IMG/VR virus record: IMGVR_UViG_3300020045_004267
Span: 1-43,551 of that record
Source of the DNA: a virus
Lineage: Duplodnaviria > Caudoviricetes
Length of the DNA stretch: 43,551 nt
Strand: one strand, 5' to 3'
Both the position numbers and the translations under genes were made by a program. The notes under the pieces are model-generated. The model did no database searches. It was not told the DNA's origin and was given only the letters and a program-made list of their open reading frames with translations. Numbering within the stretch: the stretch's first letter is position 1; each line of letters opens with the position of its first letter. Below are positions 3,080 to 42,025 of the stretch, in pieces.

Positions 3080-3520
3080 ATGTCACTCGAAGACAAGATC
3101 GACGCGCTCACCGTGGCGCTTGAGAAGAACAACGAACTGCTGACCTTTATGACATCTGCTGCCCGCAAGGGGCTTGAGGCCGGTGCCGCCAAAGCGCCCG
3201 TCACCGCAGCGCCGACCGCCGACGCTGAACCCGCCAAGACCACTCGCGCACCGCGCGGCGCGGCCAAGGACAAGGCGCCGAAGATTCCGACCGTCAAGGA
3301 AATCAGCGATCAGACCAAGGCTTTCTTGGATGTCAAAGATGAAGACGAATACACCGAACGTCGCGCATTCGTGACCAAGATTGTCGAAGCGTTCGCTGTC
3401 AAGAAGATGTCGGAAATCGGCGACGGCGACCGGCAGAAGGCTTTGGACTACCTGACGGCCTATATCGCGGGCGAGCAGACCGACCTTGACGACGAAGGCG
3501 GCGAAGAAGACCTGGCCTGA
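3080..3520 (+). CDS. Hypothetical early protein (Ala/Pro-rich linker, acidic tail ending EEDLA)
   Basis: AAGGAG RBS before ATG 3080; usual position upstream of DUF2800 in such modules. Confidence 0.8.
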   Translation: MSLEDKIDALTVALEKNNELLTFMTSAARKGLEAGAAKAPVTAAPTADAEPAKTTRAPRGAAKDKAPKIPTVKEISDQTKAFLDVKDEDEYTERRAFVTKIVEAFAVKKMSEIGDGDRQKALDYLTAYIAGEQTDLDDEGGEEDLA

Positions 3521-3544
3521 TTTTCTGACCGACTGACTGAGTAA

Positions 3545-3577
3545 CACCTTGATACCAAGCCCCCAGGTATCAAGGTG
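3545..3577 (+). terminator. Intergenic hairpin (possible terminator or processing site)
   Basis: Perfect 12-bp stem CACCTTGATACC/GGTATCAAGGTG, 9-nt loop, short T run after. Confidence 0.5.
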
Positions 3578-3634
3578 CTTTCACGACAGGCTGACGCGAT
3601 CTGCCTGTTCTCAAAGCATCTTATGGAGATTGCG

Positions 3635-3886
3635 ATGGACTACTTTGTCACCAGATATGCACTTTCGAATGCTGGATTGCCTACCATCGTTTCCAGTGAA
3701 AACAAGCCCGGTGATGATGGTTTCGTTTGGCTGAGAATGCCAAAACACGCATTCGGCACGACCTTCAAACTGGGTCGGAATGTCTTTCTTTCTAAGGACG
3801 ACGCTGATGCTGCGATCCGGGCAGACCGTGACAAGAAGATCAAGTCTCTTGAGAAGCAGATTGCCAAGCTGCGGCTGATCGGCTGA
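3635..3886 (+). CDS. Hypothetical protein
   Basis: GGAG RBS before ATG 3635; C-terminal coiled coil KKIKSLEKQIAKL; abuts next gene. Confidence 0.65.
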   Translation: MDYFVTRYALSNAGLPTIVSSENKPGDDGFVWLRMPKHAFGTTFKLGRNVFLSKDDADAAIRADRDKKIKSLEKQIAKLRLIG

Positions 3887-3889
3887 CCT

Positions 3890-5125
3890 ATGGGAACGAA
3901 GGCACATGCACGTCTCTCGCCATCATCGGCGAGCCGCTGGTTGCGCTGCCCAGGTTCAATCGCTCTGATTGACGACCTTGCACTCGAAGACGAGTCCGGT
4001 GACGCCGCCAATGAAGGCACGATCCTGCACTATATTGCAGAGCAATGCCTTGTTCTCGGCGAGACGCCCTATGATTGGGTCGATAGCACTGTCAGCCTTT
4101 CAGACATCGCCGAATGGTCGGGCAATGGTGACGGCGGCATCACTAAAGCCAATGATTTCACACTGGAAATCACTGAAGACATGGCCGATCAGATAATGAG
4201 CGGTCTGGATCGCATTGACGAGATCGGCGGAAAGCTGTTCATCGAAAAGCGGCTTGACCTCGGGCGCTGGATGCCCGGTCAGTTCGGCACAATGGATGTC
4301 GGCATCGTCGGCAAGAAGCGGATAACTTGCTTCGACTGGAAGTTTGGCTTCCTGCCAGTATCCCCGGTCGATAACGACCAACTGCGCATTTACGCGCTCG
4401 GCTTCTGGGATCAATACGCTCGTCACATCAGCGATGCCGAAGACTTTCGGTTGATCATCTGGCAACCCCGCGCCCCCGGTGGCGGCGGTGAATGGGACAT
4501 CAGTTTGGATGACCTTCTTGACTTCGGTGATCGACTGAAAAGCGGCGCTGAAGCCACTTACAAGAAGAATGCCAAGCGGATCGCAGGCGACAAACAGTGC
4601 CTGTATTGCCCTGGTGCCAAGACGCTCACATGCGCGGAATATTCGGCCTTCAACCTTGATGCCGTTCGCCTTGATTTTGACTCGATGGAACAGGATGCGG
4701 ATCTCGGTCTGGACCTTCGACCCCCATCCATCGCAGGTCTGACGGCAAAGCAAGCGGCCTTCATAGCGCTGCACCGTGGCACCCTGAACAAGTTCTTTGA
4801 CCGGGTACACGCGCGGGTGCGGGATGACGCGCTCAAAGGCTTCCCTACGCCCGGAGTCAAGGCCGTGGATGGCCGCAGCCCGCCGCGCAAGTACCTTGAC
4901 ACCGAAGAAGCGACCGATGTGGTTGTGGAAGCTGTCGGCAAAGGCCGCGCCTTCACCCGCAAGCTGATCACGCCGACCAAACTCGAAGAATTGGTTAGCC
5001 CCGAAACCTACGCTGACATTGCCCGGTCGCACATCACTCGTGCCGACGCAAAGCCTGTGTTGGTGCATGAAGACGATGCCCGCCCCGCAATCCGGTCGGT
5101 TGTCGATGAGTTCAACGAGGATTGA
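3890..5125 (+). CDS. DUF2800 / Cas4-like PD-(D/E)XK exonuclease
   Basis: HARLSPSSASRWLRCPGS, EGTILH, FGTMD, DWKFG, QLRIYALG, CLYC...C. Confidence 0.9.
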   Translation: MGTKAHARLSPSSASRWLRCPGSIALIDDLALEDESGDAANEGTILHYIAEQCLVLGETPYDWVDSTVSLSDIAEWSGNGDGGITKANDFTLEITEDMADQIMSGLDRIDEIGGKLFIEKRLDLGRWMPGQFGTMDVGIVGKKRITCFDWKFGFLPVSPVDNDQLRIYALGFWDQYARHISDAEDFRLIIWQPRAPGGGGEWDISLDDLLDFGDRLKSGAEATYKKNAKRIAGDKQCLYCPGAKTLTCAEYSAFNLDAVRLDFDSMEQDADLGLDLRPPSIAGLTAKQAAFIALHRGTLNKFFDRVHARVRDDALKGFPTPGVKAVDGRSPPRKYLDTEEATDVVVEAVGKGRAFTRKLITPTKLEELVSPETYADIARSHITRADAKPVLVHEDDARPAIRSVVDEFNED

Positions 5126-5139
5126 AGGAGAACTGCAAA

Positions 5140-6084
5140 ATGGCAGAACGTGAAGCCGATCCACTTCGGATCAAACTGAAGAACGTGCGCCTTTCCTATC
5201 CGCATCTGTACAAGGCGAAAGCCTTTGGTGACGGTGCTGAAGGTGAACCCAAATACAACGCCGCCTTCATCATGGACCCTGAGACCAAGATCGGGCGCAT
5301 CAACATCGCTTTGATCGAGGATGCCATTGATCATGCGATGAATGAGAAGTGGCCCAAGGGTGCGCCCAAGCTGTCTTCGGCCAAGAAGTGTTTGCGCTCG
5401 GGCGACGACCTCGAAGAAGTCAAGGACGGCTATGAGGGAATGGTGTACCTGACGGCCTCTGAATCCAAGCGCCCGCGCGTTCTGGACATCGACAGCGAAG
5501 ACGTGCGCGATGGCGACGAGGGTGCGCCTTACGCGGGCTGCTTTGTCGATGCCATCGTGCGGGTTTGGGCGCAAGACAACAAATATGGCAAGCGTGTCAA
5601 CGCCGGTCTGATCGCGGTCAAATTCCGCGAAGATGGTGAAGCCTTTGGCGGCGCTGCACCGTTCGACAAGTCCGAGTTCGATGACGACGAGGACGAAAAG
5701 CCCAAGGGCCGCAGCCGGTCGCGCGACGACCATGACGAGAAGCCCAAAGGCCGGGGCCGCTCGCGTGATGACGACGAGGACGAAAAGCCCAAGGGCCGCA
5801 GCCGGTCGCGCGACGACGATGACGAGCCGCCCGCCCGCCGCCGTTCCAGCCGTGATGACGACGAGGACGAAAAGCCCAAGGGTCGCAGCCGTTCCAGCCG
5901 TGACGACGATGACGAGCCGCCGCCCCGCCGCCGTGCCAGCCGTGATGACGACGAGGACGAAAAGCCCAAGGGCCGCAGCCGGTCGCGCGATGACGATGAC
6001 GAGCCGCCCGCCCGCCGCCGTTCGCGCGACGATGAGGATGAGCGGCCTGCCCGTCGCCGTCGCAATGACGATGACGTAGCATAG
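5140..6084 (+). CDS. DUF2815 family ssDNA-binding protein with long charged C-terminal tail
   Basis: NVRLSYPHL, PKYNAAFI, YAGCFVDA, GKRVNAGL, DGEAFGG; AAGGAG RBS. Confidence 0.9.
   Translation: MAEREADPLRIKLKNVRLSYPHLYKAKAFGDGAEGEPKYNAAFIMDPETKIGRINIALIEDAIDHAMNEKWPKGAPKLSSAKKCLRSGDDLEEVKDGYEGMVYLTASESKRPRVLDIDSEDVRDGDEGAPYAGCFVDAIVRVWAQDNKYGKRVNAGLIAVKFREDGEAFGGAAPFDKSEFDDDEDEKPKGRSRSRDDHDEKPKGRGRSRDDDEDEKPKGRSRSRDDDDEPPARRRSSRDDDEDEKPKGRSRSSRDDDDEPPPRRRASRDDDEDEKPKGRSRSRDDDDEPPARRRSRDDEDERPARRRRNDDDVA
5680..6075 (+). repeat. Coding tandem repeats (DDDEDEKPKGRSRSR / DDDDEPPARRR)
   Basis: About 5 KPKGR units and 3-4 EPP(A/P)RRR units, near-identical at DNA level. Confidence 0.9.
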
Positions 6085-6091
6085 GCAGATG

Positions 6092-6115: not shown

Positions 6116-6124
6116 TGACACCCG

Positions 6125-8134
6125 ATGACCCAAACCAAAATCACTCAGGTTCTCGATACCGAGATTTATCGGAACTACCTGCTCATCGGCTTTATGAACA
6201 TCGCCAATGACCGGGTGGAATCCGTTGAAGCCTTTGGCGAAAATGCCCGTCTTTCAAAAGAGGATCGGCTTTGGGTCAAAGACCAAATGCGCAAGCGGCG
6301 CAACATCAGTTTCAACGGGATCAACTTTGACAACTGCATTATCTATGGTGCCATCGCAGGTTTGACTTGCATGGAATTGAAGACCATCGCCAACGACATC
6401 ATCGAAGGCGGAATGAAATATTGGGAAGTCGCCGATGCCTACGGCTTTGATATTCCAAGAAACCTAGACCATATCGACCTTATCGAAGTGGCCCCCGGTC
6501 AGGCCAGCTTGAAGATTTTCAATGGTAGGATGCACGGCCTGCGAATGCAGGATCTCCCTATCCATCACGACGCCAAATTGACCGAAGCCGATGTTGAGGT
6601 CGTCTATGAATATTGGAAGAACGATCTCCAAGCGACAAAGCTGCTTCACGCCAACCTGAAAGAGCAAATCGACCTTCGCATCGACATTGGCAAGAAGAAT
6701 GGGCTTGATCTAAGGTCCAAGTCCGATGCTCAGGTGGCCGAAGCCGTCATCAAGAAGCAAGTCACCGACATTTTGGGATTTGCGCCTAAACGGCCAAGCA
6801 TCGCACCAGGAACCAAGTTCAAATACCTCGCGCCGGATTACATCCGGTTTTTCAGCGAGCAGATGAACGACATTCTTGACCGACTCGAGGAATGGGATTT
6901 CCGGCTGGCACCGAAAAGTCAGAAGGTATTGCTGCCTGATTTTATGACCACGGCACAGATCAAACTTGGTCACAGCACATATCAAATGGGGATCGGTGGG
7001 CTGCACTCGACCGAGAAGTGTGCGGCACATTGGGCTGACGAAGACAACCTTCTGAAAGATGTTGACGTGGAGTCCTACTATCCGCGCATCATCATCAACC
7101 GTCGCCTGATGCCGCCGCAGATCGGGAAGGCGTTCCTCAAGGTTTACAAGGGAATCGTTGACCGACGCTTGGCTGCGAAGGCCAAATTGAAGGTTTTGAA
7201 CGAGGAAATAAAAGCACTCAAAGCTGCGATTCTCGGCTCAAACCGACCGTCAGAACTCATGGCTGAAAAGCTGGTAACGCTTGAAGCCGAAGCGCACAAA
7301 TGGGACGTTGAACAAGGCGGTCTGAAAATTGCCATCAACGGTTCGTTTGGCAAACTCGGGTCGTCCTACTCGGCTCTTTTCGCACCTGAACTGCTGATTG
7401 CGACCACAATCACAGGTCAGCTTGCATTGCTGATGCTGATTGAACGGATTGAGCGCAAAGGATTTGCTGTCGTCAGCGGAAACACTGATGGTATCGTCAT
7501 CAAGTGCCCGCGCGCCCGAGAAGATGAGTTGACCTCGATCATCAAGCGCTGGGAAGAAGACACCGATTTCAAAACTGACGAGACGCAATATGAGGCTCTT
7601 TTCTCGGCATCCTGCAACAACTACATCGCAATCAAGAAGGGCGGCGGCACAAAGCGCAAAGGGCATTATGCGAAGTCGGGTCTTGAGGAAAAGAAGAACC
7701 CGACCTTTGATATTTGCGCCGACGCCGTGGCCGCATATGTTGAAAAGGGAACGCCGATCACCGAGACTATCCGTGCCTGCAAAGACATTCGGAAATTTGT
7801 CACCGTGCGCAAGGTCAACGGTGGGGCGATCTGGGGCGTCAAAGAGGTTGAGGTTGAGAGGATCGGCAAGCGCGGTCAGCGGCTGAAGCCTGGTACTTCT
7901 TACGATGTCAGCGAAGCCGAATATCTCGGCTCTGCAATCCGTTGGTATCAAAGCACTTGCGGCATGGGGGCCATCCATTACAAGGGCAGCAACAACATGG
8001 TGCCCAAGAGCGAAGGCGCGCGACCGATCATGCTGATGACTGGTGATTTCCCCGAAGATGTTGACACGGCCTACTATGTGCGCGCTGCACGTCAGATGCT
8101 GAAAGACATCGCATATGAGCAGGAACTGGTTTGA
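6125..8134 (+). CDS. DNA polymerase, family B-like, with 3'-5' exonuclease
   Basis: ExoI LDTE, ExoII FNGINFD, ExoIII YWKND; pol motifs DVESYYP, KIAINGSFGK, NTDG. Confidence 0.88.
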   Translation: MTQTKITQVLDTEIYRNYLLIGFMNIANDRVESVEAFGENARLSKEDRLWVKDQMRKRRNISFNGINFDNCIIYGAIAGLTCMELKTIANDIIEGGMKYWEVADAYGFDIPRNLDHIDLIEVAPGQASLKIFNGRMHGLRMQDLPIHHDAKLTEADVEVVYEYWKNDLQATKLLHANLKEQIDLRIDIGKKNGLDLRSKSDAQVAEAVIKKQVTDILGFAPKRPSIAPGTKFKYLAPDYIRFFSEQMNDILDRLEEWDFRLAPKSQKVLLPDFMTTAQIKLGHSTYQMGIGGLHSTEKCAAHWADEDNLLKDVDVESYYPRIIINRRLMPPQIGKAFLKVYKGIVDRRLAAKAKLKVLNEEIKALKAAILGSNRPSELMAEKLVTLEAEAHKWDVEQGGLKIAINGSFGKLGSSYSALFAPELLIATTITGQLALLMLIERIERKGFAVVSGNTDGIVIKCPRAREDELTSIIKRWEEDTDFKTDETQYEALFSASCNNYIAIKKGGGTKRKGHYAKSGLEEKKNPTFDICADAVAAYVEKGTPITETIRACKDIRKFVTVRKVNGGAIWGVKEVEVERIGKRGQRLKPGTSYDVSEAEYLGSAIRWYQSTCGMGAIHYKGSNNMVPKSEGARPIMLMTGDFPEDVDTAYYVRAARQMLKDIAYEQELV

Positions 8135-8430
8135 ACCGGCGCCCGACATACGGGGAAGGCTATGTTGTCAAAGCCTCAAATGCGGCTGCTGAGAAGGCAG
8201 GCTTCATCCATCGCAAGGTGCGCTATGAAAACCGCAACGGGGCACCTGACGACTGGTATTTTGGCCCCGGGGCGCGGCTGATCATCATTGAACATAAGCG
8301 GCCGGGCAAGGACGCGACTGCGCAACAGAAGCGTGAAGGGGATCGGCTGCGAAAGTTGGGTTTTGATGTGCGCGTTGTCGATACGGTCGAGATGGCGCAG
8401 CGCGTGTTCAGGGATGAGGACTTGCTGTGA
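8131..8430 (+). CDS. VRR-NUC domain nuclease
   Basis: GAPD..., IEHKRPG, Q...LRKLGFDVRVVD; lies between polymerase and SNF2 helicase. Confidence 0.85.
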   Translation: MNRRPTYGEGYVVKASNAAAEKAGFIHRKVRYENRNGAPDDWYFGPGARLIIIEHKRPGKDATAQQKREGDRLRKLGFDVRVVDTVEMAQRVFRDEDLL

Positions 8431-10035: not shown

Positions 10036-10227
10036 GTGTCACTTTTGAAAATTGAGCAAGTGCTTGAGATGATCCCCGTCACAAGCCGCACCATCGACAG
10101 GTGGATTGAGGCGGGTGAGTTCCCCCGACCCATCAAGATCGGTCGCACCCGCATGTGGGAGTCTGCCGAAATTGACGTAGCCATCGGTCGCGCCCCGGCT
10201 GCAAAACGTAACGACGATCTGATCTGA
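10036..10227 (+). CDS. AlpA/excisionase-like HTH protein
   Basis: LLKIEQV...SRTIDRWIEAGEFPRPIKIG..W pattern; GAGGA RBS. Confidence 0.8.
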   Translation: MSLLKIEQVLEMIPVTSRTIDRWIEAGEFPRPIKIGRTRMWESAEIDVAIGRAPAAKRNDDLI

Positions 10228-10234: not shown

Positions 10235-10987
10235 ATGACAAGACGAGATGATTCCGACCTGATTGGAGACGTGCCCGATCAGCCCGCTCGGCGCCGGGGC
10301 GGCAGACCCCGCAAGGACGATCTGACTGCCCCATCCAACCGGAAGAAGTTGGACCTGATCAGACTGGTGGAAAGACGCCGTGCCGCACAGCAGAACCGTG
10401 GGTCATATGGTGAGGTGATCCAGCCTGACGAGGATGACACCGACATGAACATCGGCACTGTCCTGACCGGCGTGTCGCCGACATGGCTTGCCCGTGCATT
10501 TGAAACGCCGCTGGCATTGGTTCAGAAGAAGATCAAAGGCGTTCGCCCGGCCGGTGTTGGTCGATCAGGCGGGGCGCTGTACTCTTTGAAGGACGTGGCT
10601 GGTCGGCTGGTCGATGTTGAGTTCGACCTGAAGCTGTTCCTCGCAAATGTCAAAGACGAAGACTTGCCTGAGTCCCTTCGTCTCAAATTCTGGCAAGCCC
10701 GCCGACAACGGCAGAAGGTTGAACTCGAAGACGGGGCGCTTTGGCGCACTGAAAAGGTTCTGGCCGTCTTCGGTGAGGTGCTGCTGTCGCTGCGGGAAAA
10801 AATACAGGCTTTGCCGGATCGGGTCGAACGCTTGACCGGCATGACGACCGAACAGTACCGGCTTTTCCGGGCCGGGACCGATGAAGTGATGGATGACCTT
10901 CAAGAGACGATCTTGCAGTTCGCCCAACATGATCAAACGCCGGTCGGAATGGATGACCAAGACGATGATGAGGACGATCTGATATGA
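10235..10987 (+). CDS. terS: Terminase small subunit (DUF1441-like)
   Basis: Directly upstream of and coupled (ATGA) to TerL; LPESLRLKFW, GALWRTEKV, LPDRVER. Confidence 0.8.
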   Translation: MTRRDDSDLIGDVPDQPARRRGGRPRKDDLTAPSNRKKLDLIRLVERRRAAQQNRGSYGEVIQPDEDDTDMNIGTVLTGVSPTWLARAFETPLALVQKKIKGVRPAGVGRSGGALYSLKDVAGRLVDVEFDLKLFLANVKDEDLPESLRLKFWQARRQRQKVELEDGALWRTEKVLAVFGEVLLSLREKIQALPDRVERLTGMTTEQYRLFRAGTDEVMDDLQETILQFAQHDQTPVGMDDQDDDEDDLI

Positions 10988-13116
10988 GCATGAATTTCCG
11001 GGTTTTCGGTGATCTTTTGAAGCTGCTCGCCAATTCGATCCGCGCGCCTGAACGGCTCACGGTATCCGAAGCTGCGGCCAAATACCGATACCTTCGGGAA
11101 GCGACTCATACCGGCTATTGGGACAACGACATCGCGCCCTATCTGACCGAAGTGATGGACACGATGGGTTCACTTGATCACACGGCAGTCGTTTTCGCCG
11201 GGCCCGCTCGTTGTGGCAAGTCAGATATTTTCTTCAACTATCTGACCTATTGCGAGATCTGTGATCCGGGCGACATTATGATGATCCACATGACGCAAAG
11301 CAGCGCGCGTGACTGGTCTCAGGGTGATCTTCGCAAGGCGTTCAGGCACTCAAAGGCACTCGGCACTCGGGTCGCGCCGGGTAAGCAGAGCATGAACACC
11401 CATGACATTCGGTTCATCAGCGGTATGCGGCTGCTGGTGAAATGGCCGACGATCACCGAATTGTCGAGTAAGACTCTGCGGCGTGGATGGGCGAACGACC
11501 TTGACCGGATGCCGCTTGATGTTGACAAGGAAGGTCCGGTGTTTGATCTTCTGCGCAAGCGGACTCAGACAGCCGGTCGCAATGGCATGACGGTGGCCGA
11601 ATCCTCACCTGGCTACGAGGTGAAAAACCATCGCTGGATGCCGTCGACTCTGCATGAAGCGCCGCCGACCGAAGGCATTCTTTCGGTCTATAACCGGGGC
11701 GACAAGCGGCGTTGGTACTGGCGTTGCGCGCAATGTGATGATCCATTCGAGGGTGATTTCAAACACCTGAGTTGGTCGAAAACGGGGCCGGATGGGGAAG
11801 CGCTCAATAACGCAGAGCAGGCGACGAGCGCGGTGCTGGTTTGTCCATCTTGCGGCTTCCCGCACACTCACGACCCTGACCCAAAAGCATACCCCACCCC
11901 GCAGCCCGGTAAGGTCGGCCTCAATTTGGGCGGCAAGTGGTTGGCTGACGGCCAGCGTTGGCTTGATGATGGATCGGTGACGGGCAAGACCAACGGCAGC
12001 ATGATCGGGTCGTTCTGGCTCAAGGGCGTGTCGGCAGCTTTCGTGTCCTGGAAGGACTTGGTTCTCAAATACCTTGATGCCATGGAAACCTACGACAAGA
12101 CTGGTGACGCGGGGCCGCTCAAAGCCACGGTCAACACCGATCAAGGACACCCGTTCACCCCGCCGAAACTGATGGCTGATCGCACTCCTGACGAATTGAA
12201 AGTCCGCGCTGCTGGCAATGTGTGGGGCACCCCGGAAGACCCTGCTGTACCGGACGGCGTTCGCTATCTGACAGCCATGATCGACGTTCAGAAGGGTAGC
12301 TTTCAGGTGCAAGTGCATGGTCACGGGTTACATGGTGATCGCTATGTCATTGACCGCTTCTCGATCAGAAAATCAGAACGCCTTGACGGCGACGGTGAGC
12401 GTTGGCCGTTGCGGCCGGGCGCGTATGAGGAAGATTGGCACTTGCTGATCGACGGTGTGATTGAGAAGACCTATCCGCTGATCGACGGCAGCGGGCGTCG
12501 AATGAAGATCAAGGCTACCGGCTGCGACTCGGGCGGCTATGAAGGCACGACTGTCAACGCCTATGCCTTCTGGCGCTATCTTCGGGATGAGCATATGGGG
12601 CAGCATCACACGCGCTTTCAATTGCTGAAAGGTGATCCGAACCTCAACGCGCCCCGATACAAGATCTCGTACCCAGACAGTGACCGGAAAGACCGGCGCG
12701 CGGGTGCCCGTGGTGAAGTGCCGATCCTGATGTTGAACGTCAATCAGTTGAAGGACCACCTTGACGGCTTGCTTGAGCGTCAGGAAAAACCGGGCACGAT
12801 CCATTTCAGCAAGCATTTGCAGGATTGGTTCTTCTCGGAACTGACGGTTGAGGTCAAGGTTGCAAACAAGGGCTGGGAAAACCCGAAGAAGCTGCGCAAC
12901 GAGGCATGGGATTTGCTTGTCTATGACTTGGGCATCTGTCTTTTCCCTCGGATGATCGGTGAGGAAAGCCTGAAACCTGACGCGATGCCCGCTTGGGCCG
13001 AAGAATGGGACGACAACGATCTGGTTTTCATGCCCCAGGATGATGTCAAACCCTTTGAGGTGCGGGAACAGGATGACGAGGTTGACATCACCGCACTTGC
13101 AAAGAGGCATGGCTGA
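10984..13116 (+). CDS. terL: Terminase large subunit, lambda gpA family
   Basis: GPARCGKS Walker A, ESSPG, WYWRCAQC zinc motif, IDVQ, DSGG, RNEAWDL. Confidence 0.95.
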   Translation: MSMNFRVFGDLLKLLANSIRAPERLTVSEAAAKYRYLREATHTGYWDNDIAPYLTEVMDTMGSLDHTAVVFAGPARCGKSDIFFNYLTYCEICDPGDIMMIHMTQSSARDWSQGDLRKAFRHSKALGTRVAPGKQSMNTHDIRFISGMRLLVKWPTITELSSKTLRRGWANDLDRMPLDVDKEGPVFDLLRKRTQTAGRNGMTVAESSPGYEVKNHRWMPSTLHEAPPTEGILSVYNRGDKRRWYWRCAQCDDPFEGDFKHLSWSKTGPDGEALNNAEQATSAVLVCPSCGFPHTHDPDPKAYPTPQPGKVGLNLGGKWLADGQRWLDDGSVTGKTNGSMIGSFWLKGVSAAFVSWKDLVLKYLDAMETYDKTGDAGPLKATVNTDQGHPFTPPKLMADRTPDELKVRAAGNVWGTPEDPAVPDGVRYLTAMIDVQKGSFQVQVHGHGLHGDRYVIDRFSIRKSERLDGDGERWPLRPGAYEEDWHLLIDGVIEKTYPLIDGSGRRMKIKATGCDSGGYEGTTVNAYAFWRYLRDEHMGQHHTRFQLLKGDPNLNAPRYKISYPDSDRKDRRAGARGEVPILMLNVNQLKDHLDGLLERQEKPGTIHFSKHLQDWFFSELTVEVKVANKGWENPKKLRNEAWDLLVYDLGICLFPRMIGEESLKPDAMPAWAEEWDDNDLVFMPQDDVKPFEVREQDDEVDITALAKRHG

Positions 13117-13412: not shown

Positions 13413-15133
13413 TGTCTTTCCTGTCCAGAGATCCAGAGATGCAAGAGTTGATCGGGATGCCTTCGGGTGCCCCGGCAATCCCGCCCGCGTCTATCGGAGT
13501 TCTCCCCGGTGGCGCGGGCGGTGAAAAGGCTATCATCGGCGAGCCTTATGAGGCTGCAAGCCGGTTTGACCGTGAAGTGGCGATGTGGACTCCATCTGCC
13601 CGGTCGGCTGATGGCGACATCACACCCAACAAGTTTTTGCTTGACGCTCGTGTGCGCGACCTCGTTCGCAATGACGGATATACCGCATCTGGCTCTGAGA
13701 TCCGCAAGGACAACATTGTCGGCGATATGTTCCTCTTGAACGCCAAGCCGAATGCCAAAGTTCTCGGTCTGGATGAGGTTTGGGAACAGGAATTTCAGGA
13801 AGAAGTCGAAGCCAAGTTCACGCTATGGGCTGAGAGTCCGAACAACTGGGTCGATGCACAGCGCGTCAACACTCTGACCTCGCTGGTGCGCTTGGCAATC
13901 GCCTTGTACACCACGACCGGCGAAGTCCTTGCTTCCGCCGAATGGATCAAAGGTTTTGACCGGCCTTTCTCGACGGCCATTCAGATGATCGACTCGGATC
14001 GTCTCAGCACACCCATGTACAAGCGCGACGGTCAGTCGATGCGAATGGGTGTTGAGCGTGACCTGTATGGTGCGCCCATCGCCTATAATATCCGCGTGGC
14101 GCACCCGCATGACTTCGCATCCAACTCTTTCCAATGGCGTCGGGTGCCGACACGGACTCGTTGGGGCCGTCAACAGGTCATCCACATCTTTGAGCAGCAG
14201 CGGCCCGACCAATCGCGCGGTGTTGCTGCCATGGCGGCAGGTCTCAAAGAAGCCCGGATCACCAAGAAGTTTCGGGACACAGTTCTGCAAAACGCCGTGG
14301 TCAACGCGACCTATGCTGCCACCATCGAGTCTGATCTGCCGTCAGAAGTGATCTTCAACGCACTCGGGGCCGGTCAGGTTGATCAAGGCGCTGTGCGCAA
14401 GGCAATCGCGGGCTATGCTGGCAGCTACATGGGCGTCAATGAGCAGTTCATCAACGCATCTGACTCGCTGACCATCGACGGGGTACGCATCCCGCACCTT
14501 ATCCCCGGATCGAAGCTGCACATGCAGCCTGCATCCAGCGGCGGGCCGCTCGGCAATGAGTTTGAGGCATCGCTTCTGCGATACATCGCTTCGATTCTCA
14601 ACGTCAGTTATGAGCAGCTTTCCAAGGACTACACCAAGACGAACTATTCGTCGGCGCGGGCATCTTTGAACGAGTCCAACAAGTCGATGCGCGCCATCAA
14701 GCGCAACGTGGCCGACCGCTTTGCATCGCACATTTACATGCTGTGGCTTGAGGAAGCGATTGCTCGCAACGAGATCACGGCGATGCCCCGCAATGCGCCG
14801 AATTTTTGGTCCGGTTTGAATCGTGAGGCTTACACCTCTTGCGACTGGATCGGCGCATCTCGTGGTCAGATTGACGAATTGAAAGAGACTCAGGCTGCGG
14901 TATTGCGCTTGAAGTACAACCTGACATCCTATGAGGATGAAGTTTCTCGTCTTGGTCGGGATTATCGCAAAGTCTTCACTCAGATCTCCCGTGAAAAGGC
15001 GCTGATGACTGATTTGAAGATCGAGGTTGATACCGGCGACGACAACATGATGAATGCTGCTACCGGCGCACCCCGTGAAAAAGAAGCGCGGGATGAAAAG
15101 GAAGACGGCTCAGAGGATAATACCGATGCTTGA
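13412..15133 (+). CDS. Portal protein, lambda family
   Basis: RDLVRND, RPDQSRG, SYEQLSKDY..NYSSAR, IDELKE. Confidence 0.95.
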   Translation: MSFLSRDPEMQELIGMPSGAPAIPPASIGVLPGGAGGEKAIIGEPYEAASRFDREVAMWTPSARSADGDITPNKFLLDARVRDLVRNDGYTASGSEIRKDNIVGDMFLLNAKPNAKVLGLDEVWEQEFQEEVEAKFTLWAESPNNWVDAQRVNTLTSLVRLAIALYTTTGEVLASAEWIKGFDRPFSTAIQMIDSDRLSTPMYKRDGQSMRMGVERDLYGAPIAYNIRVAHPHDFASNSFQWRRVPTRTRWGRQQVIHIFEQQRPDQSRGVAAMAAGLKEARITKKFRDTVLQNAVVNATYAATIESDLPSEVIFNALGAGQVDQGAVRKAIAGYAGSYMGVNEQFINASDSLTIDGVRIPHLIPGSKLHMQPASSGGPLGNEFEASLLRYIASILNVSYEQLSKDYTKTNYSSARASLNESNKSMRAIKRNVADRFASHIYMLWLEEAIARNEITAMPRNAPNFWSGLNREAYTSCDWIGASRGQIDELKETQAAVLRLKYNLTSYEDEVSRLGRDYRKVFTQISREKALMTDLKIEVDTGDDNMMNAATGAPREKEARDEKEDGSEDNTDA

Positions 15134-18069: not shown

Positions 18070-18417
18070 ATGGCCTATAAATCTGTCATTTCCCTGAAAT
18101 TCAAATCTGCCGATGGCAAGAAGATCAGCGTGAAATCCGGCAAGATCATCACCGTAACCATGCCTGACGACCTCGTGTCGAAGTGGCTGGACAAGGGTTT
18201 CATCGTCAAGGCGAGTGTTGGCGAAGTGGCCGAAGCCGTTGCAAGCGGCGCTGTCGAACCTTCCGTTCTTGGTGGCACCACCGACGAGAAGCTGTCCAGC
18301 AAGGCCGCAGCCAAAGGCCCGAAGGTTGGCAAGACCAAGGCGGCTGAACCGGCAAAGACCGAACCTGCTGCCGATACGACCAAATCCGAAGGCGGCGCTG
18401 ACGACGACTTGGCCTGA
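18070..18417 (+). CDS. Hypothetical protein (Lys/Ala-rich tail ending DDDLA)
   Basis: GGAG RBS; post-capsid position. Confidence 0.75.
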   Translation: MAYKSVISLKFKSADGKKISVKSGKIITVTMPDDLVSKWLDKGFIVKASVGEVAEAVASGAVEPSVLGGTTDEKLSSKAAAKGPKVGKTKAAEPAKTEPAADTTKSEGGADDDLA

Positions 18418-21774: not shown

Positions 21775-21832
21775 TGATAGTCGCCGTCACAACTTTCGTT
21801 TAGGTTCCCCCTGAGCGGTGAATGAGGGCAGC

Positions 21833-30073: not shown

Positions 30074-31282
30074 ATAATCGACCTGACCAACGCGCATGAT
30101 CACGCCATCCATGCCGTACTTGGGCCAGTTCATCTTGACCACGCTGCCGGGTGTGATGTCCCAAGCGTTGCGGTTCACGACAGCATCACAACTCATAAGC
30201 GGGGCCGACGCCACTCGAAGATCACGGGCGGCAAGGCGCATCGCCAACTCGGAATTGCGAATACCGGCATATTCCCGGCTGTCGCTCACAACCGATCCTT
30301 GGGCTGCGATGTTGGCGAGATCCTGTATTTGGACCGTCTCAGTTTCTTCGTTCACCGGATTGGTCCAAGTGACGATGATTTCGTTGATCGTCTCGCCCCA
30401 TAGCTTGCGCTGATAGCCGCTGACCGTGGCGTTGCCGGGGTTGATCTCGAACAGGTCGTCAGGGTCATAGTCATCGCGGATCAGCTTGGGCGTCAGCAAA
30501 CCAGTGCGAGGATTCAAGAACATCACCGCCCCGATGTGCCCGAGGATCGTGCCGATGAAGTCTTCCGCGCTTGCCTGCTGCGACCAGAGCAAAGACATGC
30601 CGAAGCCTTCATCGAACAAGGTCTGCGCACAAGCCTCAAAAGCGTCAGTGTCAAGCGATCCTGGTGCTGTCCCGATGCCCCAATCGGTATTGGTCAACAC
30701 CTCGTAAGCGATGTGCATTCCATTGGCGTCAGGGCCGATCATAGCCGTTTCTTCTGGCAGACCCTTGGGACGACGCCGCACAGTGACCCAAGCAGGCTGG
30801 ATATAGGGCGAGTTGGCTTGCCAATAGAAACCGTTGCCGCTTCCCAGAGTACCGCCAAAGATGTTGACGAAGATCGCTTCGGCCAAGCTGAAGTCGCCTT
30901 CGCCGACCGGCGCGGTGGTATCGACAACCGGGAAGTTCAATTCGCTGCCGCCCGCTGTGAAGAACAGCGAAGTCAAGCCGCGATAGGCGGGTGCCGTGGC
31001 CGAGGTCAGCCCGAGTTTGGCCGACAGGTATTCACCCAGAACCTGTGTCGAGTTTCCCGGCAGATAGGTCATCAGGCCGCGAACGCCACCCTCTTTCTTG
31101 ACGCCGCCAAACAGATCACTCTTGTCGATCATCACATGCGTCGGGACAGTCAATTCGCCCGACCATGCTTCCTTTTCACCGACGAAAAGTGAGAGGAACG
31201 CATCGACGGGCCCGGCGCAAACGCCATAGTGAATCGACATATAGTATTCGACTACTTCGACCTTTGGCTTCTTACTGCCCAC
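30071..31282 (-). pseudogene. Tail tip / central fibre (gpJ-like) N-terminal ~400 aa, inverted and truncated
   Basis: MGSKK, CAGPVD, FGGVKKEGG, PAYRG, LTNTDWG, KLIRDDY, AARDL; ends at MRVGQVDYG. Confidence 0.8.
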
Positions 31283-31475
31283 GCGATGACCTCACATTCG
31301 ATACAGCTTTGATCGCCATTGCATCGCCCGTCGCAAGCAGGCTTTCAGGTTCGATCCCGTCGCGCAGAAACGCTTTGAAGTCCAGACCGTATTCAGCAAA
31401 CCAACGACGCTGGCCGCTGGCACAGATGCCAAGCCGACGCAGATCGGACACGGTGATATTCGGCTCAGAGGTCAT
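31272..31475 (-). CDS. Small tail assembly protein (inverted segment)
   Basis: ITVSDLR..GICASGQRRWF...GLDF..FLRDGI...L.ATGD, typical of the gene preceding the tip protein. Confidence 0.8.
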   Translation of the reverse strand: MTSEPNITVSDLRRLGICASGQRRWFAEYGLDFKAFLRDGIEPESLLATGDAMAIKAVSNVRSSRGQ

Positions 31476-31699
31476 CAGCCTTTGACCTTGAACTTGGAAT
31501 AGCGCTTCTCACCGAACCACAGGCAGTTGACACTTTTAATCGTGATTGTGCCAAATGCGACCGGGTAAGGCTTACCGGCGTCAGCGGTAGGATCGTCAAT
31601 GTTGGTGATCTCGGGTGACGTGATCTTGGGCTTCGGCATGATCAGATAGGCGACGACCGAAAGTGCCACACTCAGAAGGAAACTCAGAAAGAATGCCAT
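31475..31699 (-). CDS. Small tail assembly protein (inverted segment)
   Basis: Hydrophobic N-terminus, PKPK, PTADAGKPYPVAFGT..I...NCLWFG; GAGG RBS. Confidence 0.8.
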   Translation of the reverse strand: MAFFLSFLLSVALSVVAYLIMPKPKITSPEITNIDDPTADAGKPYPVAFGTITIKSVNCLWFGEKRYSKFKVKG

Positions 31700-31745
31700 G
31701 CTGTCACCTCGTCAGATGCTGCTCGATAGCACAGGCGCCAGTCGT

Positions 31746-31990
31746 TCAATAGAACTGATTCAAGCGTCCGATAGGGTTTTTGTTGGGGATGAAAGCGCAC
31801 CCGCCAAAGTTGTTCATGTTGTTGTGGATCGTATGGCAATCGGTATCAGGGTCAAGTCCGATGCCGCCTTCGGCCAAAATCAAACTGCGATTGCATCCCA
31901 AAACCATATTGACCGTCATACCTGCCGACAGGTCGCGGGTGATCCCGGCCAGAGTCACCAGCCTGTAATCCGATGGATCGGCGACGGTGC
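31746..31990 (-). pseudogene. C-terminal fragment of DUF2163/BR0599-like tail protein
   Basis: LGCNRS...C...HNNMNNFGG..FIP.KNP C-terminal signature; the N-terminal part is absent; left boundary approximate. Confidence 0.75.
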
Positions 31991-32059
31991 CCGTTCGATA
32001 AGACTTCCTGCAAACCTGCCACCATGCTAAACCGTCGCCACATTCGATAAGAGGTCAAT

Positions 32060-38102: not shown

Positions 38103-38861
38103 TCATATCAAATCGTCGTTGACTCGAGTCTGGATCGCTTCCAGTTCCCTCGTCGTGCGTTTCATGGTCTCGATCACTGTTTTGACCGCGCCCCAGGTTT
38201 CGGTCAGACCCAGCTTCTGAATTGCTTTGACTGCCTGTGCAATGCGCTTGATCTCGAAGATGGTCATATCGCCGAAGATCTCACGATAGGCTTCAAGTTC
38301 GTTGGCTGCTTCACCATGACGACTGCGATGCGCTTCCAATGCGCGCAGGATCGCCGAACGGGTCTGTTCCTCATGCTGTCTGCGCATACTCGTGACAGCC
38401 TTGTCAGCAGCTTCCCTGATCACATCCTCACCCGGCGCACCAGCACGGCGCAACATGGATGCGATGAAGCCTCTGGTGAGCGTTACGGGCGTCAATGCCG
38501 GGGCTTGCTTGACGGTCCTGATGCTGGTGCCATCGAAGGTCATCAAGCCCCATGTCTCGGGCAATTCCGACGCTTTCACCATCCCGGTCGGAGTCACCAG
38601 ACTCCAACGGTCACAAAATTGGAAGACGGCTTGTGCTTTCGTCGGATCGCGCATCTCGTTGAGGAAGTCACCCCGGCTGACTTTGATCTCGAAACCGTGG
38701 ATCATGTACCCGTTGGAAGGCCAGATGCCCATTGCCACCGCGTCAGCGCTGCGAGAAGCCCTTGTGCCGGTATCGTCGGCCACCTCGTACAGCATTTGCC
38801 AGCCGGGCGCAGGAAACGGCCCTCTCAGTGCCGCTTTGATCATCGCCGATGTCACTTGCAT
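38103..38861 (-). CDS. PD-(D/E)XK nuclease-like (MmcB-like) protein
   Basis: EV...R.ADAVAMG.WPS...HGFEIKVSRGDF, ELPETWGL. Confidence 0.65.
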   Translation of the reverse strand: MQVTSAMIKAALRGPFPAPGWQMLYEVADDTGTRASRSADAVAMGIWPSNGYMIHGFEIKVSRGDFLNEMRDPTKAQAVFQFCDRWSLVTPTGMVKASELPETWGLMTFDGTSIRTVKQAPALTPVTLTRGFIASMLRRAGAPGEDVIREAADKAVTSMRRQHEEQTRSAILRALEAHRSRHGEAANELEAYREIFGDMTIFEIKRIAQAVKAIQKLGLTETWGAVKTVIETMKRTTRELEAIQTRVNDDLI

Positions 38862-39070: not shown

Positions 39071-39492
39071 CGCGCCCAAGGGATCAGGTTGACCCCGGCC
39101 TCATTGAACATATGGGCGACAGCATCAGACTCTTCACCCATCGCCATGAACGTCCCATCGCCGAAGTACACTTCCTTGATCCCAGCTTGAATGATGGTGC
39201 GGGCACAGGACGCGCAAGGTACATGGGTGCAGTACAGCACACAGCCTGCGGTGCTGATGCCCGACCGGGCGCAGAAGGCCACCAGGTTCGCTTCTGCATG
39301 GCTGGCATACAGATACTTCATCGGGCGTTCGCGGCGCTCTGGTGGCTCTTGTACACCAATCGGCGGGCCATTGAACCCCGTGGCGCGGATTGTCCGATTA
39401 GCGTCAACCAGCACAGCACCGACCTTTGTGCTGTCCTTCGACTTGGTTGCCGCGTGTGTTGCAAAACCTTGGAAATATTGATGCCAGTTCAT
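39067..39492 (-). CDS. dCMP deaminase family protein
   Basis: SKD.STKVGAV, TGFNG, HAEAN, PCASC, IIQAGI. Confidence 0.92.
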   Translation of the reverse strand: MNWHQYFQGFATHAATKSKDSTKVGAVLVDANRTIRATGFNGPPIGVQEPPERRERPMKYLYASHAEANLVAFCARSGISTAGCVLYCTHVPCASCARTIIQAGIKEVYFGDGTFMAMGEESDAVAHMFNEAGVNLIPWAR

Positions 39493-41183
39493 ATCAAATC
39501 CTCGATCTCGTTGCGTTTCAATTCAGCCATGATCTGCTTACCGACCCATGTGAACATCGGCACGGCCCAGCTATTCCCAAGCTGCTTGTAGCGGGCACCA
39601 TCAGATGCGCGCTTGGTGCCGACCGTCACGTCAGTAAAGCCATCTGGAAAGCCCATCAGGCGCTCGCATTCAACTGGCATCAGCCGTCGCACTGTCATCG
39701 TCGCGCCGTTGCGCATCACCACGTTGCTGTCAACCGTGTCAACATCGGTGCCCGGTGGCCGATCCCCGCCCGTCCGGTTGCCGCCTGCGCGCAATGTCGG
39801 GCTGACCTGTGATGCGAATGCGATGGTCGGCTCGTCGTAAATGACAGCGTTTTCCTGCCCGCTGTTCCGGCCCAATGGAAAGGTCAACTCGGACATTACA
39901 AGCGGGTCTTGGGTGCCGTGGATCACAGCAACGCAGGGTGCAGCATCGCCCTTGCCCGTCTCACCAGACTGCGCTTGCAGCGCGTTGACCATATCGCCCA
40001 TGTCACCACGACCGTTGCGGGCGATGCGGGGCTGAAAGGCATGAACCACGATGTCGGTGGCCCCTTTATGATCGCGGCTTTGCATGGTTGAAGCGATGTT
40101 GTCGTCAGCATATTCCCCGAAGGACAATAGCCGGTATGGCTTCAAACCATGGACATGATCATGCACAAGGTACGCGCCGCGCTGTGAAAAAAGTTCTTGG
40201 TTGGACTGACCGACTCCGCCTGTATTGTGGCATTGATTCAGGGTCGGATGCGGGTTCTGATCGTCGTCCCAGTGACTTCGACCAATTGAAGTGCCGACAG
40301 CAGATTCCACATGGGCGACGACAGCATCTTGTCCACATCTATCGCCTGATCTTGCGAACCCTGAGCCACTACTTGTAAGGCATGGTGCAATATCGTGGGT
40401 AAAGCCTTGCCCCTTCTCTCTGCTCGGAGCAGAATCCCGGCGCAGGCTTCCGAACTCAAAAAGAACCTGGCCGGGATCGAACCCCTGACGAGAACTTGCG
40501 ACAACCACAACACGCGCGCGTCGTTGGGCCAAGCCGAAATATTGGGCGTCTTTGACGACCCACGCGACTGTTCTTTCGGGTCCAACGACAACACCAGCGT
40601 TCGACCATTTTCCCCTTGGCGGTTCGAGACACACAGTTTCCCCGGCGAGTCCAGCAAGGAAGTGACCGAAGGCATTTCCTCGATCGCTGAGAACCCCGGG
40701 TACATTTTCCCAGACAATGATGCAGGGCTGATCGCCGCGCTCGGCTCGTATTGTGTCGATTGCATTGGCGAGTTCCACAAATTTCAAAGTCAGTTGTCCG
40801 CGTGGATCACTGAGACCGCCGCGCAATCCCGCCACCGAAAAGCCTTGGCATGGGGTGCCGCCACATAGCACATCAGGGGCTTCGGCGGCACCTGACATCA
40901 CCATGTCGGGCAACCGTGTCATGTCACCCCAGTTGGTGATGCTGCTGCCCCAGTCGATCTTTGTCGCGGCTTTGATGGCTTTCTGCCGATCCTTGACATC
41001 GGCATCGCTCAGACCGGGATCGCTTGGCGACAGGGGGAAGTGCGGGGCCGTGGCACCGAAGCGTTCGGCCAGAACCGATGATGCGGAAACATCAACTTCT
41101 GCGAGCCATTCGGCTTTCCAGCCAAGCGATTCCCATGCAACCGATGCCGCTTCAATTCCGCTGCAAACACTTCCAAAACGCAA
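39489..41183 (-). CDS. DNA cytosine-5 methyltransferase
   Basis: SVCSGIE (I), GGTPCQGFS (IV), ENVPG (VI), QRRAR (VIII), RRL.P.ECERLMGFP (IX), YKQLGNS (X). Confidence 0.95.
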   Translation of the reverse strand: MRFGSVCSGIEAASVAWESLGWKAEWLAEVDVSASSVLAERFGATAPHFPLSPSDPGLSDADVKDRQKAIKAATKIDWGSSITNWGDMTRLPDMVMSGAAEAPDVLCGGTPCQGFSVAGLRGGLSDPRGQLTLKFVELANAIDTIRAERGDQPCIIVWENVPGVLSDRGNAFGHFLAGLAGETVCLEPPRGKWSNAGVVVGPERTVAWVVKDAQYFGLAQRRARVVVVASSRQGFDPGQVLFEFGSLRRDSAPSREKGQGFTHDIAPCLTSSGSGFARSGDRCGQDAVVAHVESAVGTSIGRSHWDDDQNPHPTLNQCHNTGGVGQSNQELFSQRGAYLVHDHVHGLKPYRLLSFGEYADDNIASTMQSRDHKGATDIVVHAFQPRIARNGRGDMGDMVNALQAQSGETGKGDAAPCVAVIHGTQDPLVMSELTFPLGRNSGQENAVIYDEPTIAFASQVSPTLRAGGNRTGGDRPPGTDVDTVDSNVVMRNGATMTVRRLMPVECERLMGFPDGFTDVTVGTKRASDGARYKQLGNSWAVPMFTWVGKQIMAELKRNEIEDLI

Positions 41184-41244
41184 GGCGAGATCCTTTCAAG
41201 GCTCAATCACCATTAGGGTTACAAGCTGCACCTGACAAGTGATT

Positions 41245-41487
41245 CTAGATCAGATCATCGTCGGCAGGACGGGATTGCTTGGCGGGTTTCGGCTCTGCTG
41301 GTTTGATCTTCGACAGACATTCGATCAGCGCCGTCACTTCTTGCAAGGCCAGCAGGCAATCCAAGCGATATGGGTTCTCGTTGTTCTGCGAAAAACGCAC
41401 GGTGTTGTTCACCACCGAGACTTTCATGTTGCCGAAGTTGGTGTGATCACCTTCGTTCAGTCGCTCGCTGTGGCTTCGGAATGTCAT
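41245..41487 (-). CDS. Hypothetical protein (ends DDDLI)
   Basis: ATGA-coupled to upstream gene. Confidence 0.7.
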   Translation of the reverse strand: MTFRSHSERLNEGDHTNFGNMKVSVVNNTVRFSQNNENPYRLDCLLALQEVTALIECLSKIKPAEPKPAKQSRPADDDLI

Positions 41488-41771
41488 ATCAGGTCATCAT
41501 CCCTGCTGGGTTTTGCATCTTCGGTCGCGTCTTCTGGCGGGTCGTCATCGGCAATTCCATCTTCGATTGCCAGCAGCTTTTCCCGTAGCTTGAAGCCGGT
41601 GCGATCCTTCGGTTCAGCATTCACATAGGACAAGAACAACTCGGCCTTTGCTTGTGCCTTTTCAGCCGTCGATCCTTGGAACGTGGTGTAAAGGTTGTTC
41701 TTGATCCGCTCAAATTGAGCGATGAATCGGCGCTGTGGCGGCGCGGTATCGCACTCGTAAATGTGGATCAT
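41484..41771 (-). CDS. Hypothetical protein (ends DDDLI)
   Basis: ATGA-coupled at both ends; GAGGA RBS. Confidence 0.75.
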   Translation of the reverse strand: MIHIYECDTAPPQRRFIAQFERIKNNLYTTFQGSTAEKAQAKAELFLSYVNAEPKDRTGFKLREKLLAIEDGIADDDPPEDATEDAKPSRDDDLI

Positions 41772-42025
41772 ATCAGGTCATCCTCTCGCCTGTTGACCGA
41801 TACCCTTGCAGGCTTCGGATCGTCTTTCTTCAACGCCCTGACGCCACCGCGAAGGGCTTGCCGCATTGCTTCGGCAGGGTCAGAATCAAGCGCCGTTTCG
41901 ACCTTGAGCGTTCTGACATTGCGAAACTCACAGCGCCAATTCGGACCTTCCCAATCCTTCGAGAGACTCAGAGTCAGCAGACCGTTGCGCACCGCGCTTT
42001 TCAGATCATCTTCAAGGCTCACCAA
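41768..42025 (-). CDS. Hypothetical protein (ends EDDLI)
   Basis: Overlaps both neighbours in the operon. Confidence 0.7.
   Translation of the reverse strand: MVSLEDDLKSAVRNGLLTLSLSKDWEGPNWRCEFRNVRTLKVETALDSDPAEAMRQALRGGVRALKKDDPKPARVSVNRREDDLI

What the first reader, a model, noticed from the sequence alone, without database searches (positions are those of the whole stretch)
3506..41782. Shared C-terminal [D/E]-D-L-[I/A/L]-stop tag on ten unrelated phage proteins
Seen: ten proteins of unrelated families end the same way. These are EEDLA (3520), DEDLL (VRR-NUC, 8430), NDDLI (AlpA-like, 10227), EDDLI (TerS, 10987), DDDLA (18417), NDDLI (nuclease-like, 38103), IEDLI (C5-MTase, 39489), DDDLI (41245), DDDLI (41484) and EDDLI (41768). 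Near variants occur on SSB (DDDVA) and polymerase (EQELV), and TerS also begins MTRRDDSDLIG. Codons vary (GAC/GAT, CTG/TTG, ATA/ATC, TGA/TAG), an Arg often lies a few residues upstream, and five copies have no in-frame start overlap, so selection looks protein-level. No recognisable capsid, portal, tail or lysis protein carries it. Established: acidic-hydrophobic C-termini act as docking motifs (SSB-Ct DDDIPF), and C-terminal residues set ClpXP/Tsp degradation. Inference: a phage-wide sorting tag that recruits DNA-acting proteins to a common hub or controls their turnover. I know of no description of it.
Basis: partly seen in the sequence, partly recalled or inferred. Interest (0 to 1): 0.9.

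Follow-up and report, generated by a model that had tools for sequence, protein, structure and literature searches.

The report
Phage-wide docking tag, reader unidentified
Ten unrelated proteins of this Chi-like phage end in the same short peptide, its portal and small terminase carry a matching peptide at their front ends, and related phages each use their own version on the same proteins, so it likely plugs DNA-copying and DNA-packaging proteins into one partner that is still unidentified.

Summary
Ten of 51 curated genes end in [D/E]-D-L-[I/A/L]: 10 of 26 non-virion genes, 0 of 25 virion or lysis genes. The window is a Chi-like (Casjensviridae-type) phage. Relatives carry lineage-specific versions (DEV, DEL, DDI, DLLG, DLIG, DGLI, DLV) on largely the same proteins. 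The version follows phage lineage, not host, and does not depend on gene overlap (45/255 vs 75/472).

The tag looks like the tail half of a position-free motif, phi-x-[D/E]-L-[L/I]-G. That motif also sits at the N-terminus of TerS (33/61) and portal (24/56) and inside primase; nine other head/tail families have none. This argues for a docking motif and against a C-terminal degron.

This scan noted the C-terminal tag before on other phage DNA. Five paper searches found no description. Closest known: T7 gp2.5 tail and the T4 clamp motif.

The parts
3506..3520 (+). C-terminal tag EDLA-stop on the gp4-like protein, first gene of the replication operon (3080-3520; N-terminal helix, linker, small helical domain); candidate hub
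   Evidence: models; 1,869 family representatives
1654..1671 (-). DEFDDD in the primase linker; likely the front half of the full motif (DEFDDL[L/I]G in relatives)
5105..5125 (+). DEFNED-stop at the end of the DUF2800 exonuclease; likely front half of the motif
5671..5688 (+). SEFDDD just after the OB fold of the SSB; likely front half of the motif
6067..6084 (+). Variant tag DDDVA-stop on the Enc34/T7-type SSB
8117..8134 (+). Weak variant EQELV-stop on the family B DNA polymerase
8416..8430 (+). Tag EDLL-stop on the small endonuclease (overlaps the helicase start)
10213..10227 (+). Tag DDLI-stop on the AlpA/excisionase-like protein (no overlap)
10250..10267 (+). N-terminal motif DSDLIG of TerS
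   Evidence: family count
10973..10987 (+). Tag DDLI-stop on TerS (overlaps the TerL start)
10984..13116 (+). TerL (gpA type), untagged; candidate reader
13439..13456 (+). N-terminal motif MQELIG in the portal leader
18403..18417 (+). Tag DDLA-stop on the gene after the major capsid gene (position of lambda FI; small domain plus long linker)
38103..38117 (-). Tag DDLI-stop on the nuclease-like protein (no overlap)
39489..39503 (-). Tag EDLI-stop on the C5 DNA methyltransferase
41245..41259 (-). Tag DDLI-stop on an 80-aa orphan (no overlap, TAG stop)
41484..41498 (-). Tag DDLI-stop on a 95-aa orphan
41768..41782 (-). Tag DDLI-stop on an 85-aa orphan

Best explanation
The ten tags are copies of a short peptide motif kept by protein-level selection, which likely docks into a pocket on one phage-encoded hub and so would gather DNA-replication, recombination, methylation and packaging proteins in one place. 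Shown: the full form is phi-x-[D/E]-L-[L/I]-G. It sits at N-termini (TerS, portal), in linkers (primase, exonuclease) and at C-termini (SSB, gp4-like, FI-like, integrase, excisionase, methyltransferases, orphans). At C-termini this lineage drops the Gly, and caps differ by phage lineage across unrelated proteins of a genome. Inferred: the motif forms a short acidic amphipathic helix; when the pocket changes, all clients follow; tags on TerS, portal and the FI-like protein would bring terminase and procapsids to replicating phage DNA. The hub is unidentified. My odds within the 0.62 are gp4-like protein (3080-3520) about 0.2, TerL about 0.17, primase-helicase about 0.12, SSB about 0.08, other about 0.05.
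For: Enrichment in 63 dereplicated loci: 144 of 951 non-virion vs 10 of 632 virion genes, p=9e-23. Independent of start overlap: 45/255 vs 75/472, p=0.6; Chi's eight DEV/DDV tails use all four Val codons and 6 of 8 do not overlap a start. Concerted caps: SSB vs gp4-like tails score 9.2 within genomes vs -1.2 permuted (n=30, p=5e-5; nearest-pair test 9 for, 2 against, 4 ties, p=0.03); five virion control pairs show nothing. A genome's SSB cap recurs on 57 other genes vs 5.2 per foreign cap in 26 genomes; pairs 9 for, 1 against, 3 ties, p=0.011. Position-free: N-terminal motif on TerS 33/61, portal 24/56, TerL 1/63, none in nine head/tail families; internal in 18 of 29 primases. Lineage, not host: Salmonella DEV, Cronobacter DDF/DDI, Klebsiella DLV; Ruegeria DLLG, Loktanella DIA, Rhodobacter ALV. 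Polymerase A/B swaps and loss of the SNF2 helicase and VRR genes leave tags in place. YeP5, with the same replication module and no lambda-like head genes in its annotation, shares ESLI on SSB and exonuclease, which points to the replication module. All three lambda terminase partners are tagged, which points to TerL (FI bridging: PMC13595911 passages; TerS and portal contacts recalled).
Against: No binding is shown. Several nearest-pair tests were not significant: SSB-FI p=0.25, gp4-FI p=0.07, SSB-TerS p=0.27, portal-TerS N-terminal motifs p=0.5. Some genomes carry two cap styles (G002, G005, G006, G007, and DLA/DVA vs DLI here), so there may be two readers. No column in any core protein tracks the cap cleanly, and trees differ by only 1-2 steps. 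The gp4-like tag does not dock on its own domain in two models, and a charge-reversal signal vanished after phylogenetic correction (r=-0.05). Acidity is not invariant: about 19 of 153 gp4 homologues have Arg/Lys-rich tails. The N-terminal LLG/LIG form is well conserved across hosts, which also fits a host reader. Tag Leu codons lean to CTG/TTG (57 of 73 vs 44 expected). A looser N-terminal pattern also hit 13 of 52 major capsid proteins. A TerL clade has a motif-like N-terminal extension.
Confidence: 0.62

Rival explanations
1. The motif docks on a conserved host protein (for example the beta clamp, RNA polymerase or a chaperone) that phage proteins share.
For: The N-terminal and internal LLG/LIG form is conserved across alpha- and gammaproteobacterial phages. 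Integrase, excisionase and repressor carry it, and they act without late phage proteins.
Against: Caps differ among phages of near-identical hosts and are shared by kin on different hosts. A fixed host pocket would not make unrelated proteins change together. The recalled clamp motif QL[S/D]LF is not matched.
Confidence: 0.17
2. There is no single reader: the peptides are sticky patches that let phage DNA proteins co-condense, with SSB tails and the gp4-like oligomer as scaffold.
For: Tags follow stretches poorer in hydrophobic residues (median 0.26 vs 0.32). Some primases and exonucleases carry tandem copies. This SSB and the clade lacking C-terminal SSB tags have long Arg/Asp repeats.
Against: Exact, lineage-specific end residues shared across unrelated proteins suggest a shaped pocket.
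Confidence: 0.1
3. The tag is a degradation or stability signal read by a host or phage protease.
For: It ends in hydrophobic residues on a flexible terminus. The lambda portal has a removed N-terminal leader (annotation; removal by the head protease recalled), and the portal motif lies in the matching region.
Against: The same motif is internal and N-terminal, so no free C-terminus is needed. Acidic C-termini are recalled to block ClpXP and Tsp rather than attract them.
Confidence: 0.08
4. The tag is a by-product of translational coupling: GAGGA plus a spacer plus ATGA reads E-D-x-I-stop.
For: Five of ten copies overlap the next start, four of them with GAGGA 6-9 nt upstream.
Against: Five copies have no overlap; family-wide rates are equal with and without overlap; eleven other overlapping genes in the window lack the strict tag; N-terminal and internal copies cannot arise this way.
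Confidence: 0.02

Closest known systems
[quoted passage not shown]
   Same: The SSB here is the same T7/Enc34 type (PF10991) and ends in an acidic tail with a hydrophobic cap that other replication proteins share.
   Different: Here 10 or more unrelated proteins share it, including packaging proteins; it also occurs N-terminally and internally; the polymerase is swapped between families A and B without tag change, so the T7 reader is unlikely.
Phage T4 sliding-clamp motif LDFL on gp55 and gp33, binding gp45 (PMC9690074 passages; gp43 recalled)
   Same: One short acidic-hydrophobic motif on unrelated phage proteins, read by one phage-encoded hub that couples processes.
   Different: No clamp gene was recognised in the window; the sequence differs; clients include terminase, portal, integrase and methyltransferases; caps vary by lineage.
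Bacterial SSB C-terminal tip (DDDIPF, recalled) and the lambda Red-beta C-terminal three-helix bundle that binds it and lambda Exo (PMC6393309 abstract)
   Same: Acidic peptide with a hydrophobic end; the gp4-like protein has a small helical domain that could be such a reader.
   Different: The logic is inverted (many proteins carry the peptide), and no significant fold match to Red-beta, Orf or Sak was found.
Lambda gpFI, which bridges capsid and terminase (PMC13595911 passages)
   Same: The tagged gene at 18070-18417 sits where FI sits; 1 of 38 homologues hits PF14000 at E=6.6e-4.
   Different: Lambda has no such tag (0 of 59 called genes); the AchV4 orthologue is annotated as a virion protein.

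Membership tests
Casjensviridae (Chi-like phages) | gpA-type TerL closest to family members | tested here: met
   best hits Loktanella pCB2051-A, AchV4, N133 at 52-54%, all Casjensviridae in their records
Casjensviridae (Chi-like phages) | Primase-HTH-exonuclease-SSB-polymerase-endonuclease-helicase-TerS-TerL order with lambda-like head genes | tested here: met
Casjensviridae (Chi-like phages) | Whole-genome taxonomic thresholds | not tested
   The record is 68% complete
T7-type acidic-tail docking system | T7-type SSB with an acidic tail and hydrophobic end | tested here: met
   PF10991 E=9e-33; ends DDDVA
T7-type acidic-tail docking system | Terminal Phe | tested here: not met
   Ends are Ile, Ala or Leu here; Phe only in some relatives such as JC01 and G007
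T7-type acidic-tail docking system | Tail binds the phage DNA polymerase | tested here: inconclusive
   No binding test; PolA/PolB swap among kin with like tags argues against
T4 gp45 clamp-binding motif | LDFL consensus | tested here: not met
   Tags read DDL[I/A/L] and phi-x-[D/E]-L-[L/I]-G
T4 gp45 clamp-binding motif | Phage-encoded sliding clamp | tested here: inconclusive
   None recognised among 47 proteins scanned; genome incomplete; orphans not folded
Bacterial beta-clamp binding motif (QL[S/D]LF, recalled) | Gln and Leu at positions 1-2, Phe at 5 | tested here: not met
   Absent from the ten tags
C-terminal degrons (ClpXP, Tsp; recalled) | Requires a free C-terminus | tested here: not met
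   Motif is N-terminal and internal in many relatives and in this TerS and portal
C-terminal degrons (ClpXP, Tsp; recalled) | Shortens half-life | not testable with these tools
   Needs stability assays
SSAP C-terminal peptide-binding helical bundle (for the gp4-like domain) | Same fold as the Red-beta CTD, Orf or Sak CTD | tested here: inconclusive
   Sak region Z=4.5, rmsd 3.6, 60 aligned, rank 20, within noise; no Foldseek match at E<=0.001 in the PDB; the wide search on the domain-only model could not be run

The most novel reading that the evidence does not exclude
Ordinary 60-kb siphophages run a self-encoded address code: one evolving peptide label and its reader assemble a DNA factory that ties replisome, recombinases, methyltransferases, terminase and portal-bearing procapsids to the phage's own DNA, and lineage-specific caps keep co-infecting phages from using each other's machinery.
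Probability: 0.3. Interest if true: 0.9.

Novelty: new variant of a known kind. Interest (0 to 1): 0.72.

Why it matters
How DNA replication is handed over to packaging in tailed phages without a nucleus-like shell is poorly understood. A single motif on SSB, primase, TerS, portal and the FI-like protein makes this testable with one peptide pull-down in culturable phages such as Ruegeria DSS3-P1 or Rhodobacter RcPescado. The tag also marks orphan genes as likely members of the DNA-handling machinery, and the natural cap variants give a ready specificity series.

Tried and rejected
Translational-coupling origin: rejected. DNA-level repeat: rejected on synonymous variation, with a mild CTG/TTG excess left unexplained. 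Polymerase, SNF2 helicase or VRR nuclease as reader: disfavoured because they are swapped or absent in tagged genomes. A gene present only in tagged genomes: none seen among the 48 most widespread families of 34 genomes. gp4-like domain as reader: no cis docking in two models; charge reversal did not survive contrasts, and control proteins gave equal raw correlations; no significant fold match in the PDB; viral models gave only uncharacterised phage proteins; the Atlas gave only hypothetical clusters. Column co-change over 16 core proteins and parsimony on 12 trees: inconclusive; TerL fits best by 1-2 steps. The wide fold search on the domain-only model was not available. Close relatives were scarce: 2 loci from metagenomes and 3 homologues of the gp4-like protein. 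Paper searches for a description of the tag: searches returned 0 papers; some searches returned 14, 2 and 8 listed papers, judged unrelated from listings only. The library lacks most subscription journals, and no supplements were read.
Full report
Observation. All ten C-termini are at the stated coordinates. In a curated list of 51 genes, 10 end in [D/E]-D-L-[I/A/L]: 10 of 26 non-virion genes and 0 of 25 virion, tail-region or lysis genes (p=7e-4). The 4-mer occurs twice in 13,027 internal positions, so chance is excluded (P=9e-29). Three broken or inverted tail ORFs were left out of that list; none is tagged. Five copies overlap the next start by 4 nt and five do not. Ile is ATA in the overlapping copies and at 38103, and ATC in two free copies.

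What the genome is. The window is a 68%-complete virus record. Gene families and order are Chi-like: primase, HTH, an unknown first gene (here 'gp4-like'), DUF2800 exonuclease, Enc34/T7-type SSB, family B polymerase, endonuclease, SNF2 helicase, AlpA-like gene, TerS, gpA-type TerL and a lambda-like head. The best TerL matches are Casjensviridae at 52-54%; Loktanella phage pCB2051-A is the sister on the TerL tree.

Relatives. I called genes with my own caller, which misses some genes and starts. I examined 83 TerL loci, reduced to 63 at 90% identity, and 34 long records (the 11 named ones cut to 50 kb). Each lineage has its own cap: DEV (Siskin), DDF/DDI (JC01), DEL (FoX4), DDI (RHph_X2_30), DLLG (DSS3-P1), DGLI/EDLI (Phobos), DLV (N133), LIG/DIG (G001, G003), LGI (G005). 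Tag-like ends are on 144 of 951 non-virion and 10 of 632 virion genes. They are no more frequent where the next gene overlaps (45/255) than where it is far (75/472). Siskin's eight tails use all four Val codons, and six do not overlap a start. One oddity remains: tag Leu codons lean to CTG/TTG (57 of 73 vs 44 expected). Lambda, a Septimatrevirus and a Nipunavirus had 0 of 59, 53 and 62 called genes tagged. Of three non-Casjens phages with the same replication module, YeP5 shares ESLI on SSB and exonuclease only; the Vibrio and Corynebacterium phages share no cap by inspection.

Concerted change. SSB and gp4-like tails match within genomes (score 9.2 vs -1.2 permuted, n=30; nearest pairs 9 for, 2 against, 4 ties, p=0.03), while five virion control pairs do not. 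A genome's SSB cap recurs on 57 other genes against 5.2 per foreign cap (26 genomes; four without SSB tags left out; pairs 9 for, 1 against, 3 ties, p=0.011). Other pairings were significant only by permutation, not by nearest pairs (SSB-FI p=0.25, gp4-FI p=0.07, SSB-TerS p=0.27). The pairs were picked greedily by tree distance and are not strictly independent. Caps follow phage lineage rather than host: three caps among Enterobacterales phages and three among Rhodobacterales phages. Several genomes show two styles, one on SSB and gp4-like and another on accessory genes, integrase and excisionase; the window has DLA/DVA on gp4-like, SSB and the FI-like protein and DLI/DLL elsewhere. One reader or two is open.

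The tag is part of a position-free motif. A strict pattern for phi-x-[D/E]-L-[L/I]-G in the first 50 residues hits TerS in 33 of 61 loci, portal in 24 of 56 and TerL in 1 of 63, and none of gpW, protease, decoration, major capsid, FII, Z, U, V or G (47-60 each). It is internal in 18 of 29 primases, sometimes in tandem. A looser pattern hit 40 of 55 portals but also 13 of 52 capsid proteins, so the strict counts are the ones to use. The window has DSDLIG on TerS and MQELIG on the portal. EF[D/N][D/E]D, the front half of DEFDDLLG in relatives, occurs exactly three times in its called proteins: primase linker, exonuclease end and SSB. The clade that lost C-terminal tags on SSB, gp4-like and FI-like genes (G009, G010, G011, G018) keeps Arg-prefixed copies on TerS and, in three of the four, on portal and primase. 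The Chi, JC01 and FoX4 clade lacks the N-terminal form, and the FoX4 portal is tagged at its C-terminus instead. Portal and TerS motifs match within genomes by permutation (p=1e-4) but not by nearest pairs (p=0.5). In 153 gp4-like homologues, 133 end in a hydrophobic cap, while about 19 have Arg/Lys-rich rather than acidic tails; the cap matters more than the charge.

Mechanism (inferred). A motif free of position, on flexible segments, with lineage-wide cap changes is best read as a docking peptide for a phage-encoded pocket. A C-terminal degron cannot explain N-terminal and internal copies, and a fixed host pocket does not easily explain concerted change. Polymerase (A/B swapped among kin with like tags) and SNF2/VRR (absent from four tagged genomes) are unlikely readers. 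Two candidates lead. The gp4-like protein is the first gene of the replication operon, has a long N-terminal helix and a small well-folded domain, and has a homologue in YeP5. TerL is almost never tagged, while its three lambda partners TerS, portal and FI all are (FI bridging from PMC13595911 passages; the other contacts recalled), and its tree fits the caps best by 1-2 steps. Against TerL: tags on integrase and repressor, the YeP5 case, and untagged lambda and Vibrio phages that have a gpA-type TerL. Against gp4-like: no cis docking, no charge co-variation after correction, and no fold link to known peptide readers.

Known comparisons. T7 gp2.5's acidic tail binds the polymerase (PMC12339929, passages and reference titles). 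The Enc34 SSB has the same kind of tail, with its last eleven residues disordered in the crystal (PMC5686142, passages and first part of Results). T4 gp55 and gp33 bind the clamp through LDFL (PMC9690074, passages). Red-beta's C-terminal bundle binds Exo and the SSB tip (PMC6393309, abstract). This system works like those but fails their sequence tests and has far more, and more varied, clients. Five searches found no description; listed papers were judged from listings only, and subscription journals and supplements were not seen. This scan noted such tags before on other phage DNA; a look-up on the portal N-terminal form returned nothing.

Verdict. Real, selected at protein level and family-wide; likely a docking code joining replication and packaging; reader unknown. 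New variant of a known kind, interest 0.72.

Noticed in passing
window 30071-32036: A block of tail-assembly genes is inverted, and parts of three genes are missing at the junctions when compared with AchV4. No long inverted repeats flank it; probably a misassembly of the record.
   Followed up: partly
window 5690-6084 (+): The SSB tail holds five KPKGR-[S/G]-RS-type repeats alternating Arg and Asp/Glu runs. Similar long Arg/Asp tails occur in Loktanella pCB2051-A and in G009, G010, G011, G018, which lack the C-terminal SSB tag.
   Followed up: partly
L183 25739-26881 (-); L184 46793-48568 (-): In two control phages, the processivity factor of Kakheti25 and a helicase of PAJD-1 end in DDIPF, like the recalled bacterial SSB tip.
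   Followed up: no
G017 (L149 1842-2372) and tail terminator genes of many loci: G017 uses DPFA on SSB and the gp4-like protein; tail terminators of many relatives end in a similar [D/N]PF[A/G] or DPY[V/A].
   Followed up: no
P0002-P0004: The closest gp4-like homologues end in RRSLA, RRSLV and RRALV: same hydrophobic cap, reversed charge.
   Followed up: partly
L082, L087, L076, L074, L089, L090, L078 TerL N-termini: One TerL clade has an extension of the type RPPTIDELIG that resembles the motif.
   Followed up: no
window 10036-10227 (+): An AlpA/excisionase-like gene sits before TerS as in temperate relatives, but no integrase was seen in this incomplete record.
   Followed up: no
window 18429-18683 (+): An extra 84-aa orphan lies between the FI-like and FII-like genes.
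   Followed up: no
L178 9980+, L180 2676+: TerL open frames of 1,042 and 1,090 aa in Bosea and Asticcacaulis prophages, about 350 aa longer than usual; possibly an insertion.
   Followed up: no
window 21818-27136 (+): The tape measure protein holds a phage lysozyme domain at residues 1250-1376.
   Followed up: no
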